DNA of 64,000 nucleotides from Parcubacteria group bacterium (GTDB taxonomy: Bacteria; Patescibacteriota; Minisyncoccia; Phycocordibacterales; CALRBT01), in NCBI GenBank assembly GCA_943354475.1, contig CALRBT010000001.1:23807-87806 (forward strand). Reading direction: 5' to 3'. Shown one piece after another: positions 19,478-29,534 of the stretch. Positions within the stretch are counted from its first letter, which is position 1. Every line of letters begins with the position of its first letter. The position numbers were made by a program, and so were the translations under genes. The notes beneath the pieces are model-generated. The model was not told where the DNA came from. It searched no databases and saw only the letters and a list, made by a program, of their open reading frames with translations.

Positions 19478-20242
19478 ATGGTGACGTTCTTTCGAAGTTT
19501 CGTGGCACTGCTGACCTTGATGGTCAGCCTCGCCACACCCTCCGCGCTTCGTGCGGCGGAACCACTGTTACCGTTAATCTCAACGGTGATTCTCGTCCCC
19601 GGTGATCCGGTCGAAGCCAAAAAAGGGAACCATGCGTTAGGGCTCCCAGAATTTGCGCTTCGGACCGGGGCAACCGTGAGGTTGTTCGCAAACAACGACA
19701 ACTGCGCGGAGTACGTCCTCAATCCCGGGAACTATCCCGACGCCGGCTGGGTAATCCCCAATATGGGGCTCTACGGGGCCGACCCAGTCGCACTCTTCCC
19801 GGAAGGTGTTCACAGTCCGACCCGCGGGTCTCTCGTGGCTGGCGATCCTGCCAATCACATGGCCACATACAAGGAGGCAAAATTTGCCTTTGTCAGTATG
19901 GCCAACCGTGTGAAGTTCGAGGAGAATCCAGCCAAGTACGAACTTCCCCTCGGAGGCTACTGTGCCGGGGCGATGGCTCAGGACCGTGTCACCCCAGGTG
20001 ACCCCCGTAACCTGTACTACGTTGCCGAGGTTGGAACATGGGCGGTATTCGGCAGTCCGAATGGCCCCATTGCCTGGGCGGCGAAAACACAGGACCAGCG
20101 TCGCATCGACTTCGCCAAGGCACAAGCCAACTACCTCCGGCGAACAGGTCTCGACCAACAACCTCCCAAGGTTGCCGTGCTTGGAAAGCTCGGCGAACCA
20201 ACGAAGACTGTAAGAATCGCTCTCCGGGAGAAGGCCGGTTGA
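19478..20242 (+). CDS. Secreted hypothetical protein (two YHS-like repeats lacking Cys) on a GC-rich (~58%) island
   Basis: Signal peptide; FEENPAKY resembles the YHS-domain C-terminus; GC far above background; terminator at 20257-20290. Confidence 0.45.
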   Translation: MVTFFRSFVALLTLMVSLATPSALRAAEPLLPLISTVILVPGDPVEAKKGNHALGLPEFALRTGATVRLFANNDNCAEYVLNPGNYPDAGWVIPNMGLYGADPVALFPEGVHSPTRGSLVAGDPANHMATYKEAKFAFVSMANRVKFEENPAKYELPLGGYCAGAMAQDRVTPGDPRNLYYVAEVGTWAVFGSPNGPIAWAAKTQDQRRIDFAKAQANYLRRTGLDQQPPKVAVLGKLGEPTKTVRIALREKAG

Positions 20243-20403: not shown

Positions 20404-23400
20404 ATGAAGTTTTACCCTACAAAGGGAAGTAGCGCAGGAAAACTAACAATGAGCCTCCTGCTCATTTCACTAGCTTTTTCTCCATGGGTAGGGGTATATG
20501 CAGAAGTAAATTCAGCCACTTCTACAACAATCATTGAGGAAGTTAAGTCCTCTAATACACCAGCTAACCCGACTCCAGAAGTAGTTACAGCCGAAACCTC
20601 GACCCCTGTTAGATTAATTGACCCAGTGGTAAGTACTTCAAGTCCAAGTACCCCCTCTCAAAAAGAATCTGAGCAAAAACTTTCACCTCCCGAAGAGTCA
20701 ACAGTAAATATCTCCACAACAACTCCCCAAAGAGAGGTTTTTAAAAAAGAAGTTGAGGAACCTAAAGAGCCAAAAGAAAAAGTAAAATTTAAAAAGGACG
20801 CCAGTAGATCACAAGAAGAAGAGTTGGGGTTGGTCCGTCAACATTTACTTGATCAGGGATTACCACAAACAATCGTTGATCGTTTGGATACTTACGAAAA
20901 AGAACAACGAGCAGGTCCTCCTCAAGAAGGAATCTTTAAAAAGATAGTCAATTTCGTCACGGGTAATACTGAAGCACAGAAAGAAGCACGAGAAGTCGAA
21001 GTTCTGGCCAAGAAACAACCTTTCAAGGTAGAAGGCTTTGAAGGGACTATTAATAAAATTGATGAATCAAGCTACAAGCAGCTTTTTCCTGATAAGAAAG
21101 AACAGACCAATGGATTTTTTGAAAAAGTAAAAACTTTCCTCAAGAGTGGTTCTTCTTTGAATTCAGATTTTGATGGAACTAAAAAAAGTACGCCACTCTC
21201 TTGGCTTTTTGGTGCAAAAGTGACTGCGCAAGTAAGCTCAAATCCAAATGATTATCTTGCTGCTGGAGGAGAGATAGTTTTCTCTAAGGCGATACAGGAT
21301 AAAGCCGTGACTCTCGGAGGTGATCCATTGGCTATGTTGAATTTTGTTCGCAATGATGTCGAATACACCCCTTACTTTGGTTCAAAGAAAGGATCCGATG
21401 CGACACTGGTAGAAAGTGCTGGTAATGACATGGACAAGGCTTCGCTTCTGGTTGCATTGCTACGCAATAGTGGTATTCCCGCAAGGTACAGACATGTCGA
21501 TGCCCAGATGGATATCAGGACAGTTACCGATTTGCTCGGAGTTGACTCTGCCATCGGTGCAGCACAAGTACTTTCTCTCCATAAAATACCTTACATACTC
21601 TATACACAGAACGATGAACCAGTTTTCTTTGTTGTTGAACATACCTATGTTGAAGCATATATGCCGTATGGATATAGTCGTGGTGCGAAATTAAATGACG
21701 GTGGATCCAAGCAATGGGTGCCGATGGACCCAACGATTACTGGGTATTATTACGAAAGACCTGTTGATCTCATCGACGAAATGAATAACTCAGGCTTTGA
21801 TGTTAAAGTATTTTTTGATAAATATCTAAAAGGGGATTATGGTTCTGCCATAGAACCACTTGAAGCTTTTAAAACCCTGGTACAGGGTCACTTGGCATCA
21901 AATCCGCCGGCGTCCTTTCCAGGACTAACCTACGATGATGCACTGATGCGCATGTATCCAAAAAATCAAGATACTGCTTTCATTCCAGCTACTTTGCCAT
22001 ACCAGATTTCTGCAGATCTTAATACGTATGATTACATTCCAGCTTCGCTACGCCATACACTTAAATTTACAGTAAAGAGTGATCAGGATGCCCAGGTACT
22101 TGGACATAGCGCATATCTCTCCGATCTCGCCAATAAAGAATTGCTCATCACCTTTGATGCCGCGACCCCAGTCGATCAGGCTACTATCGACTCCTTTGAC
22201 ACGATTTATGACGTTGTTCCGTTATCTTTGGTGTCGGTTACTACAAAAATAAAAGTAAACGGTGTGAATATTGCAGAAAGTGCGACACCCACCACTCTTG
22301 GAAAATCACAAAAGTATGTGATGGAGTTTGGAATACCAACTCGAGAGATTGGAGGCCCCGTTAACGCACTTGTTGAAGAGACTATCGACAAGAGTATTAT
22401 TGTAGGAAATACGGATGCAATCGGTCTTGATACTGGGCGTGTTGTACCTTCTGGACTTCGACCAAAGGAGGATATAGCAACTTCTAGTTTTGTTTCAGGC
22501 CAGATACTCTATGATACAGCTCAGGATTACCTCTACCGTCTCGAAAATACAGAAGGTGAATTGGCACGGATTATCGGAGCTGATTTTAGTGACGTTGCAA
22601 CGAGAGCAATTATTTTTAATGGAATTGCAGTGACTAATAAGAATGGCCAACCATATTCATTTGATTGGAAAGGACTTCGTATTGATGCATCCGCAAAGGT
22701 GAAGTACTTCAGTAGATTCCATGAAAGTGTTAAAACACACAAAAAAGAGTTCACTGCAGTATTTGGTCTACAAGCATCTCAAGATGAATCAGATGTCTTT
22801 GAAGATAATTTTGACGTCGAATCGGTTGCTACTGTCAAAGGATTAAAGTTGGTATCTGCGAATACTTTTAGTGGTATTACACTGAAAAAAATCAATCAGA
22901 CGAATGAAGGTGATATTGATGGACTTAACGTTACGGCGAGCACAAAAAACGTTTTCCATAGCGCTATTCAAGAAGGAAATACTATCTACACACCAACCGC
23001 TCCTATTACCTATGGTGCTTGGCACGGTCTCTTTTATATCAACATTGACTTTGATGGCGGAGAAGCCAGTTATAGTATCGGCGAAGGGCTCAATGGGGGA
23101 TATACCGTTTGTGGACTTCCAGGAATCACAAGTTTTTGTAATTGGGTTCAAGATCGGGTGGACTACTTAAGAAAAGATACCCCCATTACAAATGCCACAA
23201 TCATCTCTCCTACTAATAACCAAAATTACACAGTAGGCGATTCAATTAACTTTGAAGTTCAATACAAAACTATTGTTAACGGCGCGACCCTTAGTCAGTG
23301 GATAGAAAAGGAAACTATCAAGACTGATAATCTTGGACCAGGGACGAGGACTCTGATAACTAAATATGGAACTGGGGTGAAAGTAAACATCAAACTCAAT

Positions 23401-24192
23401 CCTAAGCCTGATCTGGGCTTGTCACTTAAGATAAACACAGCTACACAGAGTGCTGAGCAGAAATTTATCGAAGGGTTCATGGACGAGATCGCCACAGAAT
23501 ATGGTGTTGAAATCACTAATTTCCTAGCAGGTGTTGGTATCTCTGAAGGTATTCGTATGCTAACTCCTGCGATTGCAAAAAAAGTTGGCCCAACGGCTGC
23601 TGGTAAAATTGTAGCCAGGTTCATTCCAGGGGTTGGTTGGGTGTTGCTCGTCGGCTCTGCCGGAAGTATTGCATACAATGCAGGACCGACTGCTGGCAAA
23701 TGTTTTAGTTTTAGTAGTTCAATGGACGACCTGCTTTTGGAAACAAAATCTCCTTCATATTTCTGTGGCAAACTAACCGCTCAGTCTCTTTTTATTGCCG
23801 CTGGAGTGGGGACAGATAGGTTAGTGGGGAGTAAAATTAGCCATTATTTTGCAAGAAAAATTGGGATAAATACAATTATACGAAGCGCTCTTCAAACTGA
23901 GGTACGGTCATCGTTAGAATTGTACGAATTAAATAACTGGTCAAATGCTGGGAGGAGTAGTGGAACTCATGTTGGAGCGGAGTGGTTTAATAAGATAGAT
24001 TCAAATACAGGTAAAAACTATTTGCCAAACACCACAACTTATAAAGAATACGATGTATATGACAAAATCGAAGGGCAAAATAGAGGCCCACACAGATTTG
24101 TAAAAGGAGAAGATGGATCTATATATTTTACAGATAATCACTATGGTGATCCAACAGTTAATAATAGCCCCCCGTTCGTAAAAGTAGACTAA
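20404..24192 (+). CDS. Secreted polymorphic toxin: signal peptide, S/T/P/E/K-rich linker, transglutaminase-like domain (Cys replaced by Asp), C-terminal barnase-like ribonuclease domain
   Basis: TGase-like core GNDMDKASLLVALLRNSGIPARY, then His in VVEHTYVEAY and Asp in WVPMDPT. The C-terminus aligns to barnase: TYKEYDVYD~READINY, PHRFVKG~SDRIL, IYFTDNHYGDPT~IYKTTDHYQTFT. Confidence 0.7.
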   Translation: MKFYPTKGSSAGKLTMSLLLISLAFSPWVGVYAEVNSATSTTIIEEVKSSNTPANPTPEVVTAETSTPVRLIDPVVSTSSPSTPSQKESEQKLSPPEESTVNISTTTPQREVFKKEVEEPKEPKEKVKFKKDASRSQEEELGLVRQHLLDQGLPQTIVDRLDTYEKEQRAGPPQEGIFKKIVNFVTGNTEAQKEAREVEVLAKKQPFKVEGFEGTINKIDESSYKQLFPDKKEQTNGFFEKVKTFLKSGSSLNSDFDGTKKSTPLSWLFGAKVTAQVSSNPNDYLAAGGEIVFSKAIQDKAVTLGGDPLAMLNFVRNDVEYTPYFGSKKGSDATLVESAGNDMDKASLLVALLRNSGIPARYRHVDAQMDIRTVTDLLGVDSAIGAAQVLSLHKIPYILYTQNDEPVFFVVEHTYVEAYMPYGYSRGAKLNDGGSKQWVPMDPTITGYYYERPVDLIDEMNNSGFDVKVFFDKYLKGDYGSAIEPLEAFKTLVQGHLASNPPASFPGLTYDDALMRMYPKNQDTAFIPATLPYQISADLNTYDYIPASLRHTLKFTVKSDQDAQVLGHSAYLSDLANKELLITFDAATPVDQATIDSFDTIYDVVPLSLVSVTTKIKVNGVNIAESATPTTLGKSQKYVMEFGIPTREIGGPVNALVEETIDKSIIVGNTDAIGLDTGRVVPSGLRPKEDIATSSFVSGQILYDTAQDYLYRLENTEGELARIIGADFSDVATRAIIFNGIAVTNKNGQPYSFDWKGLRIDASAKVKYFSRFHESVKTHKKEFTAVFGLQASQDESDVFEDNFDVESVATVKGLKLVSANTFSGITLKKINQTNEGDIDGLNVTASTKNVFHSAIQEGNTIYTPTAPITYGAWHGLFYINIDFDGGEASYSIGEGLNGGYTVCGLPGITSFCNWVQDRVDYLRKDTPITNATIISPTNNQNYTVGDSINFEVQYKTIVNGATLSQWIEKETIKTDNLGPGTRTLITKYGTGVKVNIKLNPKPDLGLSLKINTATQSAEQKFIEGFMDEIATEYGVEITNFLAGVGISEGIRMLTPAIAKKVGPTAAGKIVARFIPGVGWVLLVGSAGSIAYNAGPTAGKCFSFSSSMDDLLLETKSPSYFCGKLTAQSLFIAAGVGTDRLVGSKISHYFARKIGINTIIRSALQTEVRSSLELYELNNWSNAGRSSGTHVGAEWFNKIDSNTGKNYLPNTTTYKEYDVYDKIEGQNRGPHRFVKGEDGSIYFTDNHYGDPTVNNSPPFVKVD

Positions 24193-24194
24193 AA

Positions 24195-24800
24195 ATGCTT
24201 GAATCAACTTCAAAAATAAAAAAATACCTTCTTGATTTCCAGATGTTGATGGATACTGGAGTAAGTGATGCTAGAATTAGTGAACTAGAAAGTTCTCTGA
24301 ATTTTAAATTTCCAAACGATTTAAGAGATATCCTTAGTAATTTTGTCCCTAGGGGTATAAAAGAGATTAATAATTCTTTCCCAGACTGGAACAATGAATC
24401 AATAGAAAGTCTCCAAAAAAGATTTGACTGGTTTACGGAAGGAGTGTTTTTTGATATAAAAAATAATGGTTTTTGGTATGGAAAATGGGGTGAAGAGCCA
24501 GAAAATATTTCAAAAAAAATTGAAATTGCTAAAGAGAAATTATTACTTGAGCCTAAGCCCATACCAATATGTGGACATAGATGTGTTTTAGGTATTGTAA
24601 ACTGCGACAGCTCTCCTGTCTTATCTATTTGGCAAACTGACATAATTTATTATGGAAGTGATATAATGGAATATTTTGTGAATGAATTTGAGGGATTTAA
24701 ACTAAAAGTTAACACGTCTGATTTAAGATTCAAAAAAGAAAATTTTTGGTCCGATGTTATTGAAGGCAAGGGACTCAAATACTCTGACCCTGTCCCATAA
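24195..24800 (+). CDS. SMI1/KNR4 (SUKH-1) family immunity protein
   Basis: ISELESSLNFKFPNDLRDILSNF and NG(F)WYG motifs typical of SUKH-1; starts 3 nt after the toxin stop. Confidence 0.65.
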   Translation: MLESTSKIKKYLLDFQMLMDTGVSDARISELESSLNFKFPNDLRDILSNFVPRGIKEINNSFPDWNNESIESLQKRFDWFTEGVFFDIKNNGFWYGKWGEEPENISKKIEIAKEKLLLEPKPIPICGHRCVLGIVNCDSSPVLSIWQTDIIYYGSDIMEYFVNEFEGFKLKVNTSDLRFKKENFWSDVIEGKGLKYSDPVP

Positions 24801-24893: not shown

Positions 24894-27800
24894 TTGTTAA
24901 TTAATTATATGAAACTAATCAAAGTACAGCAAAATATTTTCCCGAAGATTGTCGTTGTATTTCTAATGGTCAGTCTTTTGGTAACACCCCTAACACCACT
25001 CTCAGCTCAGGGTGTAGACCAATTGGAGCAAAACAAAGCTGTGCAGAGTCTGGTACAGAAACGTCCACTTGCTCAGGTGATAGATATTCCAGAAGTTATT
25101 ATTGGTACAAGCACTGTTGCTAATATTTCTCTGGTTGATTGGGATCAAAAAATAGAAGTTGGTGGAAAAAAAGTTTCGCTCAGTTCTGAAGAAGGACTTG
25201 CTTCAATTGAGCTTTCTCCAGTTATTCAAAAACTTGTAGAAGCATATCATGGAGACATCACTTCAATTGAGAGTGCACTTTTTGCACCCTCTTCTTTAAA
25301 GCTTGAGAAGAAGAAACATGCTACTGAAGCACTTCAGTATGGCATTGCACAGAGTCTTATTGAGGAAGGATTACTCCCTAATGATTACTTCGAGCTATTG
25401 GCACAAGGGTTTATTGAGCCTGCCGACAATCTTATAGACGCAAAGAAAGCTTTTATTAAAAAGCCAGGAGCGATAAAAGCAATGAAAGCCGAGGTTGTTC
25501 CCGAAGTAACTATTGTGGATATTACAACAGTGGAGGGGGGTCAGATTAACAAGAATAAGGAAAAGTCTTCACCTCTTGGATCATTATGGAATACAGTCAC
25601 AGGTATCGTTTCAGATATCGGAGGCTTTGTTGGTAATCAGTTTGCAAAATCCGGAACCGCTTCCAAGACGGCCGAGGTAAGTGGCACTTCTAATGGTATT
25701 ACAGAATCTTCTGCTGCACTGATCTCTGGTAACGCTTCAGCCCAGAGTGCTTTACAGTATCTTGTTAGTCATCAAAACACGGATGGTTCTTGGGGTAGTG
25801 GAAATTCTTTACTTACAACGACGAGTGCAGTACTTGATGCGCTCGACGTCTATGGCGAGATTGGGCCTGAATACCAAAAAGGAATCACTTGGATTGAATC
25901 GTACATTACTGATAACAACGACTATCGTGCTCAACAAGCTAAACGATTGGCACGAGCAGGTAGGACTATAAGTGAGTTGGAGTCGATTGCTAGTACCATA
26001 GACGATTCAACCGGAGGATTTTCATATGATGTTGGTTACCAAGCTGATCCAGCAACAACTGCTAAAGTGCTACAGGCACTCACTGAAGCAGGTTTTGAAG
26101 ATTCCGGGTCTAGTCCACGAGCCACGAGAACGCTTGCTCTCTATTATCTTACACAAACACAGCGGTTCGATAAGGGATGGAGTCTCTTTGATGATGGTGC
26201 TAGTTCTCTACCTGTAACAACGGATGTTATTAACGCACTTTTGCCCTACAAAGGTCAGTCGTTGCTCGGGGTTGGTTCTTCTAAAATCGTCATTGATTCC
26301 ACGATTAAACCTGCTCTGGATTCACTTAAGGCAACACAAATGTCCGATGGTAGCTGGGGTGGTGATCTGCTCAATACAGCAGTTGTTGTGCAGACGTTAA
26401 AGAAAGGAAAGACGGCCGCGACCTATGCACGTGAATCAATTTCGTATTTAGAAAATGCACAAGGGGTTGATGGAAGTTTTGGTGGGGGTGACATCTATCT
26501 AACAGCACAAGTGCTCAAGGCACTCGCCACGCCAGAACCCTCTGTTGGTAATCTCGCAGTTACCGACATTGCATCAACTAACCCCTTACAAACAAGAACT
26601 CCTGCGGGAATCAAGATTACGATAACAAACAGCGGTGACTTAGTGGCTAACAGCGGAATACTCCACCTTGTTGCTGACCACTATCTTATGGGGTCATTCA
26701 ATCTTGCAAGTAGTAGTCTCGTTATTAATCCACACACTTCGGCACAAATTACCGTTAATATTTCAAACACGGCTGGATATGTCGGGGATGTTGCCTTCGA
26801 TGCTTTCATTGAGGGAGTGGGGGATGTAATCTATGCTTCCTCGCGTTACCAGAAAACACTAACCTTTGCCGAAGACCCAACACACCTCCCAGGACTTCCA
26901 ATTTATTTTACTGCTCAGAAACATATTATTGACGGACAACCAGCTCTTAATGTTCGTTGGGGTAAGAAAAGTGATCCTAATCGACTTAATTACCTCATTA
27001 TGTGGCGAGTGGTAGGGGAAACGTCTTGGAATACTTATCCTATCGCCAATGATAAAAATGGTGCTTTCATTTCTCCTTATGTTGAGGATCAACTGTATGA
27101 AGTAACGGTTGGGGCCGTCACAGCGGATGGCACAAAGTATACTTACTATAGCTCTCCGGTTCAGGTAAGAGTAAGTGCTGATGCCAATAAATACACCTCA
27201 GGAACGGTCTCGGGTACGATGAGAGATGTTAATGGTCCGGTTGGAAATATAAGTCTCCTGGCTGGTGGTGATTTTGCAACCGTCGATGCGGATGGAAATT
27301 TCAATCTCACCCACGTTCCTTACGGAAAAGGTTGGGTCAGGGCGTCGAATTTTCGATACGAGGATTATGTTACGACGTTCAAAACTTCTGATAGTACTGT
27401 GATAAACCACAAAGCATACACGAACCTCGTACCGGATATCGCAACCCCAACGATTACTTATTTTGCCATGGCAAACGAAGCCGATTATAAAATGGAGAAT
27501 CTGGAAACGAAGTTCATTCATCTCGGAGTCGCTGACGATATTGGCATAACTGGCACAGGGATTGTTGCCAGTGCGAGTTTCTCCTATTATGATCCTCACG
27601 ATTCAACTTGGCACTCGATTGGGACAATGCAAGGTCCGCTCTCGAGCACTGTTGGATATTCGTGGAATGTTCCAGGCACTTTGTTTGGTCCAGGATACAA
27701 AATCAGAGCAACGATTCGAGATTATAGTGGTAAAGAGTCCGAGCCGACAGAATGGGGGCCATTTGAATTTACTCAAGGAAACGCAACACCAGAATTTGCT

Positions 27801-29534
27801 TTCGTAACCCCGCTATCAGCCACCACAACAGTCGCTGACCTTAGTCATACTATTGTCTGGACTGATAACGATAATGATGACAATGCCAGAATCTTACTTT
27901 CATATGACCCTGATGACACGCTAGATAATGTAAATCATACAAACATCACCACATTGTATGAAGACGATGTCGTTGATCAGTATATCTGGGACACATCAAA
28001 TATTCCCGAAGGCACTTATTATCTTTTCGCACTTGTTAGTGATAACCATAATGCCAATCAGGTGATCCATTCTCCTCAAAGGGTTACTATCACACACAGC
28101 GCACCAACTCCTCCATCCCTCTTACGTGCTGAAGGAAAAACAAATCCAACCAATATTACTGACCCAACTCCAGAATTCTCGGCAGTTTACAATGATCTCA
28201 ATGTAGGGGATGTGGCAAAGAAATATCGTATCCAGGTGGCAACATCGACCACGTTTACGTCAACAAAATGGGATTCAGGAATGGCCCTACTTGCGAGTTC
28301 AACCCCCCGAGGATTCCGTACCAAGGATATATCGTATACAGGTTCTTTGCTTGCGTCGAGTACACCATATTACTGGCGTATCAAGTTCTGGGATACAGCG
28401 GGTAGCGAAGGTTCGTGGAGTACTACGACAGCTTCTTTTTCACTTGCCCCATCAACTAATAGTTCTCCTACACCTCCAACATCACTACAAGTTGAAGGAA
28501 AAGCGAATCCAGTCACTATCACTAATCCACTACCAAAGTTTTCAGCAGTATATAACGATCTTAACTTAGGAGATCAAGCAAAGAAATATCAAATCCAAGT
28601 AGCAACCTCCACCACTTTTGTATCGACAAAATGGGATTCGGGAATGAAAGTTCTTGCAACCTCGACTCCTCGAGGTGGGCGTATTCAAAGCGTTACCTAC
28701 AATGGCTCGTCTCTCGCCTCAAGTACTCAGTATTATTGGCGTATAAAACTATGGGATGCAAATAGTAATGAAGGTGCGTGGAGTACTACGACAGCAAGCT
28801 TCTCTCTAGCTGCCTCTACGAGTAAGCCACCTCTTGCACCAACAGAGCTTCGCACTGAAGGCCTAGTAGACCCAATCAATGTTACCGACTCAACCCCAGA
28901 GTTCTCAGCTGTGTACAACGATCCAAATATTGGGGATATGGCAAAGAAATATCAAATCCAAGTAGCAACCTCTACAACTTTCACTTCTCTTGCATGGAAT
29001 TCAGGCACGGTATTACTTGCAACCTCAACCCCTCGAAGTGGTCGTACATACGCCATTGCATATACCGGATCAACACTTGCATCAAGCACAACCTATTATT
29101 GGCGAATAAGATTGTGGGATACTGCCGGTAACGAAGGTTTGTGGAGCACGACAACTGCTAGTTTCTTGTTATTGCCAAAAAACAATATTCCAACCGCTCC
29201 GACATCACTACAAACCGAAGGGTTGACTAATCCAACCAACATTATCGACTCAACCCCGGATTTCTCTGCAATATATAACGATGTTGATCTTGGTGACCTT
29301 GCAAAACGGTATCGTATCCAAGTATCGACCTCAACAACATTTTCGACTCTAAAATGGGATTCAGGAACCACTCTACTTGCAAGTTTAACGCCGATAGGTT
29401 CGCGTATTACGGACGTTTCCTACAGTGGCTCGTCTCTCGCCTCAAGCACAACCTATTATTGGCGTATTAGATTTTGGGATACTAGAGAGGGTGGTGGCGC
29501 TTGGAGTAGTAGATCGTCATTCTCTCTAAAATGA
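24894..29534 (+). CDS. Very large surface protein: signal/TM anchor, squalene-cyclase/prenyltransferase-like alpha-alpha toroid repeats, CARDB-like and carboxypeptidase-regulatory-like domains, five tandem FN3-like repeats
   Basis: QNTDGSWG, SDGSWGG and GVDGSFGG repeats; NSGDLVANSG (CARDB-like); five ~105-aa repeats each carrying YYWRI(K/R)(F/L)WD...G.WS. Confidence 0.7.
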   Translation: MLINYMKLIKVQQNIFPKIVVVFLMVSLLVTPLTPLSAQGVDQLEQNKAVQSLVQKRPLAQVIDIPEVIIGTSTVANISLVDWDQKIEVGGKKVSLSSEEGLASIELSPVIQKLVEAYHGDITSIESALFAPSSLKLEKKKHATEALQYGIAQSLIEEGLLPNDYFELLAQGFIEPADNLIDAKKAFIKKPGAIKAMKAEVVPEVTIVDITTVEGGQINKNKEKSSPLGSLWNTVTGIVSDIGGFVGNQFAKSGTASKTAEVSGTSNGITESSAALISGNASAQSALQYLVSHQNTDGSWGSGNSLLTTTSAVLDALDVYGEIGPEYQKGITWIESYITDNNDYRAQQAKRLARAGRTISELESIASTIDDSTGGFSYDVGYQADPATTAKVLQALTEAGFEDSGSSPRATRTLALYYLTQTQRFDKGWSLFDDGASSLPVTTDVINALLPYKGQSLLGVGSSKIVIDSTIKPALDSLKATQMSDGSWGGDLLNTAVVVQTLKKGKTAATYARESISYLENAQGVDGSFGGGDIYLTAQVLKALATPEPSVGNLAVTDIASTNPLQTRTPAGIKITITNSGDLVANSGILHLVADHYLMGSFNLASSSLVINPHTSAQITVNISNTAGYVGDVAFDAFIEGVGDVIYASSRYQKTLTFAEDPTHLPGLPIYFTAQKHIIDGQPALNVRWGKKSDPNRLNYLIMWRVVGETSWNTYPIANDKNGAFISPYVEDQLYEVTVGAVTADGTKYTYYSSPVQVRVSADANKYTSGTVSGTMRDVNGPVGNISLLAGGDFATVDADGNFNLTHVPYGKGWVRASNFRYEDYVTTFKTSDSTVINHKAYTNLVPDIATPTITYFAMANEADYKMENLETKFIHLGVADDIGITGTGIVASASFSYYDPHDSTWHSIGTMQGPLSSTVGYSWNVPGTLFGPGYKIRATIRDYSGKESEPTEWGPFEFTQGNATPEFAFVTPLSATTTVADLSHTIVWTDNDNDDNARILLSYDPDDTLDNVNHTNITTLYEDDVVDQYIWDTSNIPEGTYYLFALVSDNHNANQVIHSPQRVTITHSAPTPPSLLRAEGKTNPTNITDPTPEFSAVYNDLNVGDVAKKYRIQVATSTTFTSTKWDSGMALLASSTPRGFRTKDISYTGSLLASSTPYYWRIKFWDTAGSEGSWSTTTASFSLAPSTNSSPTPPTSLQVEGKANPVTITNPLPKFSAVYNDLNLGDQAKKYQIQVATSTTFVSTKWDSGMKVLATSTPRGGRIQSVTYNGSSLASSTQYYWRIKLWDANSNEGAWSTTTASFSLAASTSKPPLAPTELRTEGLVDPINVTDSTPEFSAVYNDPNIGDMAKKYQIQVATSTTFTSLAWNSGTVLLATSTPRSGRTYAIAYTGSTLASSTTYYWRIRLWDTAGNEGLWSTTTASFLLLPKNNIPTAPTSLQTEGLTNPTNIIDSTPDFSAIYNDVDLGDLAKRYRIQVSTSTTFSTLKWDSGTTLLASLTPIGSRITDVSYSGSSLASSTTYYWRIRFWDTREGGGAWSSRSSFSLK
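28090..29530 (+). repeat. Coding tandem repeat (~315-bp unit x ~4.5) encoding the FN3-like modules
   Basis: Recurrent caatccaac...acccc(a/g)gaattctc(g/a)gc...tattggcgtat segments. Confidence 0.7.

What the first reader, a model, noticed from the sequence alone, without database searches (positions are those of the whole stretch)
21300..21760. Transglutaminase-like core in which the catalytic Cys is replaced by Asp
GNDMDKASLLVALLRNSGIPARY aligns position-for-position to the TGase-like cysteine-protease motif G-x-C-x-D-F-x-x-L-x-x-A-L-x-R-x-x-G-IPAR. His (VVEHTYVEAY) and Asp (WVPMDPT) are retained downstream. Codon 21427-21429 encodes Asp where Cys is expected. This is either a pseudo-enzyme scaffold or adhesion module, or an unusual Asp-His-Asp variant. 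The toxin therefore combines a degenerate TGase-like module with an RNase tip.
Basis: partly seen in the sequence, partly recalled or inferred. Interest (0 to 1): 0.6.

Follow-up and report, generated by a model that had tools for sequence, protein, structure and literature searches.

The report
Cysteine-less transglutaminase-like head of a toxin
The Cys-to-Asp change is real, but it is the normal signature of a very large, already described family of "inactive transglutaminase" head domains on secreted bacterial polymorphic toxins, of which this gene is an ordinary new member from a Patescibacteria-like genome.

Summary
Observation confirmed. ORF 20404-24192 (+, 1262 aa) has a Pfam Transglut_core match (E 6e-10). 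Profile alignment to PDB 3ISR puts Asp342 (GAC, 21427-21429) on the catalytic Cys. His413 and Asp442 are retained. The protein has no Cys before residue 903.

This is not peculiar to the gene. The domain belongs to a family of at least 1,323 50%-identity clusters across many bacterial phyla. Its signature is YxGSxKG...G-N-D-x-D-x-A-S-L-L. The ex-Cys position is Asp in about 90% of members, Ala/Ser/Gly/Pro in the rest, and never Cys.

His413 is Arg in 13% of members and hydrophobic in 8%. It co-varies with Asp442, not with Asp342. That argues against an Asp-His-Asp catalytic triad.

The domain sits in a conserved ~670-aa head. Behind it the C-terminus is hypervariable (RHS, lytic transglycosylase, amidase, nucleases). 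Here the tip is a probable RNase Sa/barnase-like domain, followed 3 nt later by a SUKH-1 immunity gene.

Zhang et al. [quoted passage not shown]

Verdict: new member of a known kind, low interest. The head's ligand and the role of the conserved Asn-Asp-x-Asp remain untested.

The parts
20404..24192 (+). Polymorphic toxin gene, 1262 aa. An alternative start at Met16 (20449) gives the 1247-aa form held in public databases.
   Evidence: ORF list and translation. The 100%-identical database proteins are P0153 (1247 aa) and P0198 (1262 aa). Identity to 21 close relatives is 55-71% over aa 250-900 and about 10% after aa 1000.
20404..20502 (+). Predicted Sec signal peptide, aa 1-33. It has a basic n-region and the hydrophobic stretch LTMSLLLISLAFSPWVGV, and ends in VYA before E34.
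   Evidence: Read directly from the translation. No signal-peptide predictor was available, so this is an inference.
20503..20988 (+). Poorly conserved region, aa 34-195. It is a Ser/Thr/Pro-rich and then Lys/Glu-rich linker.
   Evidence: Composition is visible in the translation. Identity to relatives is 18-46%.
20989..23118 (+). Conserved head module, aa 196-905. It comprises the transglutaminase-like core and about 450 aa of uncharacterised, mostly beta-rich domains.
   Evidence: The full module is present in 110 of 153 family sequences. The AF2 model has pLDDT 88.4 and pTM 0.89. The part after aa 445 has no Pfam or PDB sequence match.
21328..21732 (+). Transglutaminase-like core, aa 309-443 (PF01841).
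   Evidence: Pfam E 6.1e-10, 39.8 bits. Foldseek matches 3ISR with E 1.8e-4; TgpA 6G4H, TglA 9CRN and CPR-C4 7PJO also match. This is the most conserved part of the protein, about 70% identity to close relatives.
21373..21393 (+). Family-specific motif Y-x-G-S-x-K-G, aa 324-330.
   Evidence: Y324, G326, S327 and G330 are each conserved in 94-99% of 199 aligned sequences. K329 is conserved in 86%.
21421..21489 (+). Signature helix G-N-D-x-D-x-A-S-L-L-x-A-L-L-R-x-x-G-I-P-A-R-Y, aa 340-362. Asp342 (21427-21429) stands in place of the catalytic Cys. Asn341 and Asp344 are near-invariant.
   Evidence: Register against 3ISR. Among 171 distinct sequences, position 342 is D 154, A 11, S 3, P 2, G 1 and Cys 0. 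N341 is present in 167 of 171 and D344 in 171 of 171.
21640..21642 (+). His413, the counterpart of the catalytic His.
   Evidence: It lies inside model strand 210-226. In the family the position is H 134, R 23 and other 14 of 171.
21727..21729 (+). Asp442, the counterpart of the catalytic Asp.
   Evidence: The Pfam match ends at aa 443, which is profile position 108 of 108. The position is D or E in 153 of 171 sequences and is coupled to position 413, Fisher p 1.6e-10 without correction for phylogeny.
23146..23403 (+). Ig-like spacer, aa about 915-1000, preceded by the Cys903/Cys912 pair.
   Evidence: Weak Big_7 match at aa 931-957, E 0.011. The region is conserved in the short cassettes P0199 and P0200. 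The assignment is tentative.
23455..23853 (+). Gly/Ala-rich hydrophobic pre-toxin domain, aa about 1018-1150.
   Evidence: It is about 70-80% identical in P0199 and also in P0200, although P0200 carries a different tip. It has no family match. A role in entry or translocation is inference only.
23866..24189 (+). C-terminal toxin tip, aa 1155-1262. It is a probable RNase Sa/barnase-type ribonuclease with candidate catalytic residues Glu1215, Arg1227, Arg1231 and His1246.
   Evidence: PF00545 E 4e-4, 21.3 bits, below the cut-off of 24. A profile search against PDB hits RNase Sa3 (1MGR, E 0.2) and RNase Sa2 (1PY3, E 0.38), with 'ykEYdV', 'tRGleRf' and 'yyTdnHY' aligned to the catalytic motifs. 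The homologue P0199 is named 'ribonuclease domain-containing protein' by NCBI.
24195..24800 (+). Putative immunity gene of the SUKH-1 (SMI1/KNR4) family. Its ATG lies 3 nt after the toxin stop codon. A public gene call starts at 24243.
   Evidence: PF09346 E 1.1e-5, 26.5 bits against a cut-off of 25.4. Junction sequence. Alternative gene call in L004.

Best explanation
The gene encodes a Sec-secreted polymorphic toxin of a Patescibacteria-like bacterium. Its parts, in order, are a signal peptide, a low-complexity linker, a conserved ~670-aa head, an Ig-like spacer, a hydrophobic pre-toxin domain, an exchangeable RNase tip, and a cognate SUKH-1 immunity gene immediately downstream.

The transglutaminase-like core inside the head has the papain/transglutaminase fold but no thiol nucleophile. 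It therefore cannot act as a cysteine protease or transglutaminase.

Asp342 sits at the N-terminus of the central helix. It belongs to a family-wide G-N-D-x-D motif. I infer that this motif caps and stabilises that helix and lines the former active-site cleft.

The most likely function of the domain is non-catalytic. It would act as a binding or scaffold module that holds the toxin on the producer's surface or engages a surface ligand, with a peptide or cell-wall component as the leading candidate. The C-terminal tip does the killing.

Shown here: the fold, the register, the absence of Cys, conservation across the family, the modular architecture, and the immunity gene.

Inferred: non-catalytic binding, the nature of the ligand, and the helix-capping role of Asp342.
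For: - Register and fold.
- There is no Cys anywhere in aa 1-902.
- Family size: 8,108 representative clusters at E<=1e-3, 4,662 at E<=1e-10 and 1,323 at E<=1e-30.
- The ex-Cys position is D 154, A 11, S 3, P 2, G 1 and never Cys in 171 distinct sequences.
- In 80 loci from species-representative genomes of many phyla it is D 61, A 13, S 3, G 2, P 1. The scan pattern used there did not include this position.
- More distant giant surface proteins carry G-N-[SAG]-x-D.
- His413 is Arg in 23 sequences and hydrophobic or other in 14. All 37 of those sequences keep Asp342.
- Positions 413 and 442 change together, from H/R with D/E to hydrophobic with hydrophobic. This behaviour fits a buried structural pair rather than a charge relay serving residue 342.
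- Asn341, Asp344, Arg354, Tyr362 and the YxGSxKG motif are all more conserved than Asp342.
- Polymorphic-toxin behaviour: close relatives are 55-71% identical through aa 900 and about 10% after aa 1000.
- Homologues end in RHS, SLT, amidase, CdiA-type RNase A, AHH nuclease, NlpC/P60, phospholipase or PT-TG domains.
- The same pre-toxin domain and tip occur as short cassettes. One of them lies three genes downstream of a full-length head toxin in a related genome.
- A SUKH-1 gene is adjacent.
- Literature: Zhang et al. 2012 describe exactly this class and propose surface anchoring by peptide binding. Iyer et al. 2011 also mention it.
Against: - Asp342 is 90% conserved, and the core is the most conserved segment of the whole protein. 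The cleft is therefore under strong selection, and a chemical role cannot be excluded.
- 58% of the top 153 sequences keep the full D-H-D set.
- No sequence has lost both Asp342 and His413.
- No binding partner is known, and no experiment or solved structure exists for any family member that I could find.
- The window protein lacks the RHS repeats that Zhang et al. list for the class.
- The co-variation statistics are not corrected for phylogeny.
Confidence: 0.7

Rival explanations
1. The domain is a repurposed enzyme. Asp342, with His413 and Asp442 or with Asn341 and Asp344, forms a carboxylate-based active site. It might be an amidase, an esterase, or an autoprocessing or cross-linking centre acting on cell-wall peptides. 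The head would then be catalytically active despite lacking Cys.
For: - Asp342 is 90% conserved.
- Asn341 and Asp344 are 98-100% conserved.
- The core is the best-conserved part of the protein.
- D-H-D is retained in the window protein and in most relatives.
- No sequence has lost both Asp342 and His413.
- Many close relatives carry peptidoglycan-degrading tips, so cell wall is a plausible substrate environment.
Against: - About 10% of members have Ala, Ser, Gly or Pro at position 342.
- 22% lack His. This includes an Asp-Arg-Asp clade, which cannot act as a relay.
- Distant relatives with the same motif frame carry Ser, Ala or Gly.
- A review of active-site variation in the papain-like superfamily lists no Asp nucleophile.
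- Asp and Asn are favoured helix N-cap residues (general knowledge). Structural conservation alone can therefore explain the pattern.
Confidence: 0.1
2. The transglutaminase-like core has no ligand of its own. It is a purely structural building block of the ~670-aa head, and its conservation reflects folding and inter-domain packing only. Binding or anchoring would be done by the uncharacterised domains downstream or by the Ig-like region.
For: - The AF2 model folds the core and the following ~450 aa as one confident unit, pTM 0.89.
- The most conserved residues are largely Gly, Leu, Ala, Pro and Tyr of a core-packing type.
- The His-Asp pair can be swapped for hydrophobic residues.
Against: Polar surface-type residues (N341, D342, D344, S327, K329, R354) are among the most conserved columns. 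That pattern is more typical of a functional site than of packing. Other dead transglutaminase-fold domains are known to be binding modules.
Confidence: 0.15
3. The protein is not a toxin. It would be a surface adhesin or enzyme whose C-terminus only resembles an RNase by chance, and the downstream SUKH-like gene would be unrelated.
For: - The RNase match is below Pfam's threshold.
- PDB profile E-values are 0.2-0.4.
- The AF2 model of the C-terminus is unusable, pLDDT 41.6.
- The gene after the homologous tip in L001 is not similar to the window's SUKH gene.
Against: - The four catalytic positions of RNase Sa-type enzymes align.
- The identity profile shows the head/tail break typical of polymorphic toxins.
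- Relatives carry recognised toxin tips above Pfam thresholds.
- The SUKH-1 match passes its cut-off, and the gene is separated from the toxin stop codon by only 2 nt.
Confidence: 0.05

Closest known systems
[quoted passage not shown]
   Same: - The transglutaminase-fold domain lies N-terminal, behind a signal peptide.
- One or more triad residues are lost.
- Bacterial Ig domains are sometimes adjacent.
- The C-terminal toxin domains are diverse and exchangeable.
- An immunity gene lies next to the toxin.
- Export is the default Sec route.
- RHS-bearing members (P0172-P0176) belong to the same head family and carry the same G-N-D-x-D motif.
   Different: - The window protein and its Patescibacteria relatives have no RHS repeats.
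- About 250 aa of linker separate the signal peptide from the domain.
- The conserved unit is a ~670-aa head, not the transglutaminase core alone.
- I could not see the paper's Figure 5D alignment. Identity of the two families is therefore inferred from architecture, not from shared accessions.
Canonical bacterial transglutaminase-like cysteine proteases, PF01841 (e.g. PDB 3ISR from Cytophaga hutchinsonii; TgpA periplasmic domain, 6G4H)
   Same: The fold is the same, and so is the motif frame G-x-[C]-x-D-x-A-x-L-x-x-A-L-x-R-x-x-x-IPARY. The His and Asp positions also correspond.
   Different: The nucleophile Cys is replaced by Asp. The preceding residue is an invariant Asn. An extra YxGSxKG motif is present. 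The domain is embedded in a giant secreted toxin.
Other catalytically dead transglutaminase-fold modules (Rad4/XPC, erythrocyte band 4.2/EPB42, yeast Cyk3, FBXO21)
   Same: The transglutaminase fold is retained after loss of the catalytic Cys and reused as a binding or scaffold module (established knowledge).
   Different: These are eukaryotic and intracellular, belong to unrelated sub-families and have different replacement residues. None sits in a toxin.
CdiA/Rhs-type polymorphic toxins with orphan C-terminal cassettes
   Same: A conserved N-terminal delivery part is joined to a hypervariable tip and an immunity gene. Truncated cassettes that begin within the end of the conserved part lie downstream of a full-length gene (P0199 in L001).
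   Different: There is no TPS domain, FHA repeat, PAAR or VgrG, and no VENN or PxxxxDPxGL demarcation motif. The producer is presumably monoderm.
RNase Sa / barnase family (PF00545, microbial N1/T1 ribonucleases) with SUKH immunity
   Same: The Glu, Arg, Arg and His catalytic positions and the Y-Y-T-x-x-H-Y motif align. SUKH proteins are common immunity partners of polymorphic toxins.
   Different: The match is below the Pfam threshold. The classical inhibitor of this RNase family is barstar, not SUKH (established knowledge).

Membership tests
Transglutaminase-like superfamily (Pfam PF01841, Transglut_core) | Profile match above the curated gathering score | tested here: met
   39.8 bits against a cut-off of 23, E 6.1e-10, covering aa 309-443 and profile positions 19-108 of 108. 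All 35 family members scanned also match.
Transglutaminase-like superfamily (Pfam PF01841, Transglut_core) | Papain/transglutaminase fold: nucleophile position at the N-terminus of a helix, with His and Asp on following beta-strands | tested here: met
   In the AF2 model (pLDDT 88.4), residue 342 is the first residue of helix 147-160, His413 is in strand 210-226 and Asp442 lies just after strand 241-246. Foldseek matches 3ISR with E 1.8e-4 and probability 1.0.
Transglutaminase-like superfamily (Pfam PF01841, Transglut_core) | Catalytic Cys nucleophile, required for membership as an active cysteine protease or transglutaminase | tested here: not met
   Asp342 aligns with the Cys of 3ISR. There is no Cys in aa 1-902. 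The domain is a fold member but not an active thiol enzyme.
Transglutaminase-like superfamily (Pfam PF01841, Transglut_core) | Catalytic His and Asp retained | tested here: met
   His413 (E-H-T-Y-V-E-A) and Asp442 (W-V-P-M-D-P) lie at the expected profile and secondary-structure positions. Side-chain geometry was not inspected.
Inactive-transglutaminase polymorphic toxins (Zhang et al. 2012) | Transglutaminase domain with loss of at least one triad residue | tested here: met
   Cys is replaced by Asp here, and no Cys occurs at this position in 171 family sequences.
Inactive-transglutaminase polymorphic toxins (Zhang et al. 2012) | Domain located N-terminally, after a signal peptide or TM helix | tested here: met
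   A hydrophobic signal-like segment spans aa 14-33, and the domain starts at about aa 290 of 1262. In homologues the domain starts at about aa 200-350. The paper says 'immediately after'; here a linker intervenes. No signal-peptide predictor was run.
Inactive-transglutaminase polymorphic toxins (Zhang et al. 2012) | Followed by an array of RHS repeats | tested here: not met
   The window protein has no RHS or YD match. RHS is present in 3 of 35 scanned members and in P0172-P0177. The window represents an RHS-less architecture of the same head family.
Inactive-transglutaminase polymorphic toxins (Zhang et al. 2012) | Diverse, exchangeable C-terminal toxin domains on a conserved N-terminal part | tested here: met
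   Identity drops from about 60-70% to about 10% at aa 900-1000. Tips seen in homologues are SLT, amidase, RNase A-like, AHH, NlpC/P60, PLA2 and PT-TG. Stand-alone cassettes also exist.
Inactive-transglutaminase polymorphic toxins (Zhang et al. 2012) | Adjacent immunity gene | tested here: met
   A SUKH-1 match (PF09346, 26.5 bits against a cut-off of 25.4) in the ORF starting 3 nt after the toxin stop. Protection was not tested.
Microbial ribonuclease N1/T1/Sa/barnase family (PF00545), for the toxin tip | Profile match above the gathering score | tested here: inconclusive
   21.3 bits against a cut-off of 24, E 4e-4, covering aa 1155-1248 and profile positions 10-92 of 98. PDB profile hits to RNase Sa3 and Sa2 have E 0.2 and 0.38.
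Microbial ribonuclease N1/T1/Sa/barnase family (PF00545), for the toxin tip | Catalytic Glu, Arg, Arg and His in register | tested here: met
   Glu1215, Arg1227, Arg1231 and His1246 align with 'HEY', 'TRGARR' and 'DHY' of RNase Sa3.
Microbial ribonuclease N1/T1/Sa/barnase family (PF00545), for the toxin tip | Alpha+beta RNase fold | tested here: inconclusive
   The AF2 model of aa 1001-1262, built from a 3-sequence alignment, reached only pLDDT 41.6 and was not searched.

The most novel reading that the evidence does not exclude
The near-invariant constellation Y324-x-G-S-x-K330 ... G340-N-D-x-D344, with His413 and Asp442, may be a living site rather than a dead one. It could be a carboxylate-based catalytic or covalent-attachment centre, or a highly specific pocket for an amine or cation ligand such as a peptidoglycan stem peptide. 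Such a site would have evolved from the thiol active site of the transglutaminase fold. It would underlie surface attachment or target recognition for thousands of secreted toxins across bacterial phyla, including the episymbiotic Patescibacteria.
Probability: 0.1. Interest if true: 0.6.

Novelty: new member of a known kind. Interest (0 to 1): 0.2.

Why it matters
As found, it matters little. It is a correctly spotted but typical feature of a widespread toxin family that comparative genomics described in 2012.

Three points have modest value.
- It documents that family in Patescibacteria-type genomes, in an RHS-less architecture with cell-wall-degrading or nuclease tips. This may bear on how these epibionts attack or feed on neighbours.
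- It shows that the conserved unit is a ~670-aa head. Two thirds of that head has no known homologue, yet it folds with high confidence.
- It shows that the ex-nucleophile is not random but Asp in about 90% of members. Asn341 and Asp344 are even more conserved. This gives a clear, cheap target for mutagenesis, because no member of the family appears to have been studied experimentally.

Tried and rejected
- **Full-length phmmer against PDB.** Only a chance hit to glycine oxidase.
- **NCBIfam.** Nothing meaningful for the toxin or the immunity protein.
- **phmmer of the C-terminal 112 aa against PDB.** It gave spurious repeat hits from beta-propeller proteins through the 'DGSIYFT' motif. These were rejected as chance.
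- E 0.002. It serves only as a supporting hint, because the reference sequence is recalled and not fetched.
- **Supplement of Zhang et al. 2012.** It holds no alignment or accessions for the inactive transglutaminase set.
- **Exact look-ups of the window protein.** They gave no name and no organism.
- **The 149-aa gene after the homologous tip in L001.** It shows no similarity to the window's SUKH gene.
- **An alternative nucleophile elsewhere.** Considered and rejected: the domain has no Cys.
- **A 'migrated' Cys at position 411.** It occurs almost only in the His-to-Arg subclade. The window has Val there.
- **Paralogues or extra cassettes in the window.** None were found among 313 six-frame ORFs.
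- **Literature searches for experimental work on this family.** Nothing relevant was found.
Full report
**1. What is in the sequence**

The finding lies inside one long ORF, 20404-24192 on the + strand, of 1262 aa. The motif GNDMDKASLLVALLRNSGIPARY is aa 340-362 (nt 21421-21489). VVEHTYVEAY holds His413 (21640-21642), and WVPMDPT holds Asp442 (21727-21729).

Pfam's Transglut_core model (PF01841) matches aa 309-443 to profile positions 19-108 of 108. The E-value is 6.1e-10 and the score is 39.8 bits against a curated cut-off of 23. The resemblance is therefore not chance.

**2. Is Asp342 really in the catalytic Cys register?**

I built profiles of the domain from its homologues and searched the sequences of solved structures. 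Both profiles hit PDB 3ISR, a transglutaminase-like putative cysteine protease of Cytophaga hutchinsonii. They align 'eraGNDmDkASLLvALLRasgIPARY' over '[26 protein letters not shown]' without gaps. Asp342 therefore stands on the Cys of the G-x-C-x-D-F-A motif.

That test fails outright: the protein has four Cys (903, 912, 1100, 1121) and none is in the first 902 residues.

An AlphaFold2 model of aa 196-905, built on a 34-sequence alignment, is confident (pLDDT 88.4, pTM 0.89).
- Asp342 is the first residue of the long central helix.
- His413 lies inside the following long beta-strand.
- Asp442 lies directly after the next strand.

This is the papain/transglutaminase arrangement.

Foldseek against the PDB returns 3ISR first (E 1.8e-4, probability 1.0). 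It also returns TgpA, TglA, CPR-C4 and the animal transglutaminases.

**3. The substitution is a family signature, not a peculiarity of this gene**

A profile search of 1.84 billion cluster representatives found 8,108 clusters at E<=1e-3, 4,662 at E<=1e-10 and 1,323 at E<=1e-30. I aligned the best 150 hits together with the hits of the word-indexed searches. That gave 171 distinct domain sequences with all key positions aligned.

| Position | Residues observed (of 171) |
|---|---|
| 342 (ex-Cys) | Asp 154, Ala 11, Ser 3, Pro 2, Gly 1, Cys 0 |
| 341 | Asn 167 |
| 344 | Asp 171 |
| 413 | His 134, Arg 23, other (Leu, Val, Tyr, Ile, Trp, Gln) 14 |
| 442 | Asp or Glu 153 |

An independent scan of one genome per GTDB species used a peptide pattern that starts after position 342. 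It returned 80 loci from the following groups:
- Patescibacteria and Nitrospirota
- Gamma-, Beta- and Deltaproteobacteria, including the cultured Methylomonas methanica, Thiobacillus thioparus DSM 505 and Geotalea toluenoxydans
- Verrucomicrobiota, Bacillota and Chloroflexota
- Acidobacteriota, Actinomycetota and Bacteroidales

In those loci the position is Asp 61, Ala 13, Ser 3, Gly 2, Pro 1, and again never Cys.

More distant giant surface proteins of Planctomycetota and Chloroflexota keep the frame G-N-x-x-D-x-A-S-L but carry Ser, Ala or Gly at the ex-Cys position.

The most conserved columns are Asp344, Tyr362, Gly326, Leu348, Arg354, Gly330, Tyr324, Asn341 and Gly340. An upstream motif Y-x-G-S-x-K-G (aa 324-330) is part of the signature. 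Asp342 itself ranks only about 37th.

**4. Catalytic triad or not?**

Position 413 is coupled to position 442. When 413 is His or Arg, 442 is Asp or Glu in 150 of 157 sequences. When 413 is hydrophobic or other, 442 is acidic in only 3 of 14 (Fisher p 1.6e-10). The sequences are related, so this number is indicative only.

All 37 sequences without His keep Asp342. They include a 23-member clade with Asp-Arg-Asp. All 17 sequences without Asp342 keep His.

His-Asp therefore behaves as a buried interacting pair that can become Arg-Asp or hydrophobic-hydrophobic. Asp342 is conserved independently of it. That is not the behaviour of a relay serving a nucleophile at 342.

Asp and Asn are the preferred N-cap residues of helices (general knowledge). 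A G-N-D-x-D start to the central helix is thus a plausible structural replacement for the thiol.

On the other side, the transglutaminase-like core is the most conserved stretch of the whole protein, about 70% identity to 21 close relatives. Several of the best-conserved columns are polar. The former cleft is therefore very likely still used for something.

I conclude that thiol chemistry is impossible. An Asp-based enzyme is unlikely, at about 0.1. A binding or scaffold role is the best reading.

**5. The protein around the domain**

The N-terminus has a basic segment, the hydrophobic stretch LTMSLLLISLAFSPWVGV and VYA before Glu34. I read this as a Sec signal peptide, an inference from sequence. 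A Ser/Thr/Pro-rich and then Lys/Glu-rich linker follows.

From about aa 196 to 905 runs a conserved head. It is present in full in 110 of the 153 family sequences. The transglutaminase-like core is its first third. The other ~450 aa fold confidently but match no Pfam family and no PDB sequence.

Identity to close relatives along the protein is as follows.

| Region (aa) | Identity to close relatives |
|---|---|
| 250-900 | 55-71% |
| 901-1000 | about 30% |
| after 1000 | about 10% (noise) |

Homologues with the same head end in a range of domains:
- RHS/YD shells
- SLT lytic transglycosylase
- N-acetylmuramoyl-L-alanine amidase
- CdiA-type RNase A
- AHH nuclease
- NlpC/P60
- phospholipase A2-like domains
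- PT-TG domains

This is the defining pattern of polymorphic toxins.

The closest relatives are annotated as Patescibacteria, specifically Minisyncoccia and Candidatus Taylorbacteria. The window has about 42% GC and ordinary chromosomal genes around the locus.

**6. The tip and the immunity gene**

The last ~110 aa match Pfam Ribonuclease (PF00545) at E 4e-4 with 21.3 bits, just under the cut-off of 24.

A two-sequence profile of the tip hits RNase Sa3 (1MGR, E 0.2) and RNase Sa2 (1PY3, E 0.38). The alignment puts 'ykEYdV', 'tRGleRf' and 'yyTdnHY' on the catalytic Glu, Arg, Arg and His motifs. These residues are Glu1215, Arg1227, Arg1231 and His1246. The RNase assignment is probable, not proven.

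The next ORF (24195-24800) begins 3 nt after the stop codon and matches SUKH-1/SMI1-KNR4 above threshold, 26.5 against 25.4 bits. SUKH is a classic immunity family for such toxins.

The C-terminal 262 aa have two database relatives.
- P0199 (429 aa, Patescibacteria, named 'ribonuclease domain-containing protein') is 63% identical to the C-terminal 262 aa (best BLASTP alignment, 94% of the query covered).
- P0200 shares the Ig-like and hydrophobic pre-toxin parts but has a different tip.

Both begin within the last ~40 aa of the head, like orphan cassettes. In a groundwater Patescibacteria contig, P0199 lies three genes downstream of a full-length head toxin (P0163). It is followed by a small ORF and by a large SQHop_cyclase-like protein, which mirrors the window's gene order.

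**7. Comparison with what is known**

Zhang et al. [quoted passage not shown] It describes the following features:
- N-terminal transglutaminase domains in which one or more of Cys, His and Asp are lost
- placement directly after a signal peptide or TM helix
- RHS repeats following the domain, sometimes with bacterial Ig domains
- several kinds of C-terminal toxin

[quoted passage not shown] Their Table 1 lists 'Inactive transglutaminase' among the N-terminal domains of Sec-exported toxins. An earlier paper mentions the same association.

RHS-bearing members of the family found here carry the same head and the same G-N-D-x-D motif. I therefore take the two families to be the same. I could not check shared accessions.

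The window protein differs in three ways. It lacks RHS repeats. It has a long linker before the domain. It comes from a Patescibacteria-type genome.

Dead transglutaminase-fold modules that act as binders are also well known elsewhere, for example Rad4/XPC, band 4.2, Cyk3 and FBXO21. I found no experimental or structural study of this toxin-head family.

**8. Verdict**

The pseudo-enzyme and toxin interpretation is supported.

The feature is the ordinary hallmark of a very large, already described family. This is a new member of a known kind, and interest is low, about 0.2.

Three questions remain open and cheaply testable:
- what the conserved Asn-Asp-x-Asp / YxGSxKG cleft binds
- what the uncharacterised two thirds of the head do
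- whether the tip is an active RNase neutralised by the SUKH protein

Noticed in passing
window 21733-23118 (aa 444-905 of the toxin): About 450 aa downstream of the transglutaminase-like core are conserved across the family. Invariant or near-invariant residues include D761, S792 and E795. The region folds with pLDDT above 90 into beta-sandwiches, a 28-residue helix and a ~20-residue-per-strand beta-hairpin. It matches no Pfam family and no PDB sequence.
   Followed up: partly
window 23455-23853 (aa ~1018-1150): A Gly/Ala-rich hydrophobic 'pre-toxin' domain (GVGISEGIRMLTPAIAKKVG...GWVLLVGSAGSIAYNAGP, with a Cys1100/Cys1121 pair) is strongly conserved in P0199 and in P0200. P0200 carries a different tip. 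The domain may be a membrane-entry or translocation module. It has no family match.
   Followed up: partly
L001 1559-14217 (ENA ERZ1292632 contig, groundwater Patescibacteria): The related locus has this gene order: a 1170-aa transglutaminase-head toxin (P0163), three small genes, the 429-aa RNase-tip cassette P0199 (which starts inside the end of the head module), a 149-aa ORF, a DKNYY protein, and a 965-aa SQHop_cyclase-like protein. It resembles an orphan-cassette array and is partly syntenic with the window. The 149-aa ORF is not similar to the window's SUKH gene.
   Followed up: partly
window 24894-29534 (+): The 1546-aa neighbour has four Rha78A-like N-terminal Ig domains (PF25788, E 1e-62). 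It also has weak squalene-hopene-cyclase/terpenoid-cyclase-like alpha/alpha-toroid matches and a CarboxypepD_reg-like domain. It is probably a large surface protein. A counterpart follows the toxin locus in L001.
   Followed up: no
family alignment, position equivalent to window aa 411 (nt 21634-21636): A subclade that has Arg in place of His413 almost always has Cys two residues upstream, at position 411: 18 of the 21 sequences with Cys411 carry Arg413. By beta-strand periodicity this residue would lie on the same strand face (not checked in a structure). The window has Val there. Whether this is a hydrophobic substitution or a re-invented thiol site is unknown.
   Followed up: partly
window 20404 vs 20449: Public databases hold the protein both as 1262 aa (start 20404) and as 1247 aa (start at Met16, 20449). 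The shorter form starts directly at the hydrophobic segment, so the true start and the n-region of the signal peptide are uncertain.
   Followed up: no
window 19478-20242 (+): The 254-aa ORF just upstream of the toxin has only sub-threshold matches, to YHS (E 0.002) and FAP206. It is conserved in position in L004. Its function is unknown.
   Followed up: no
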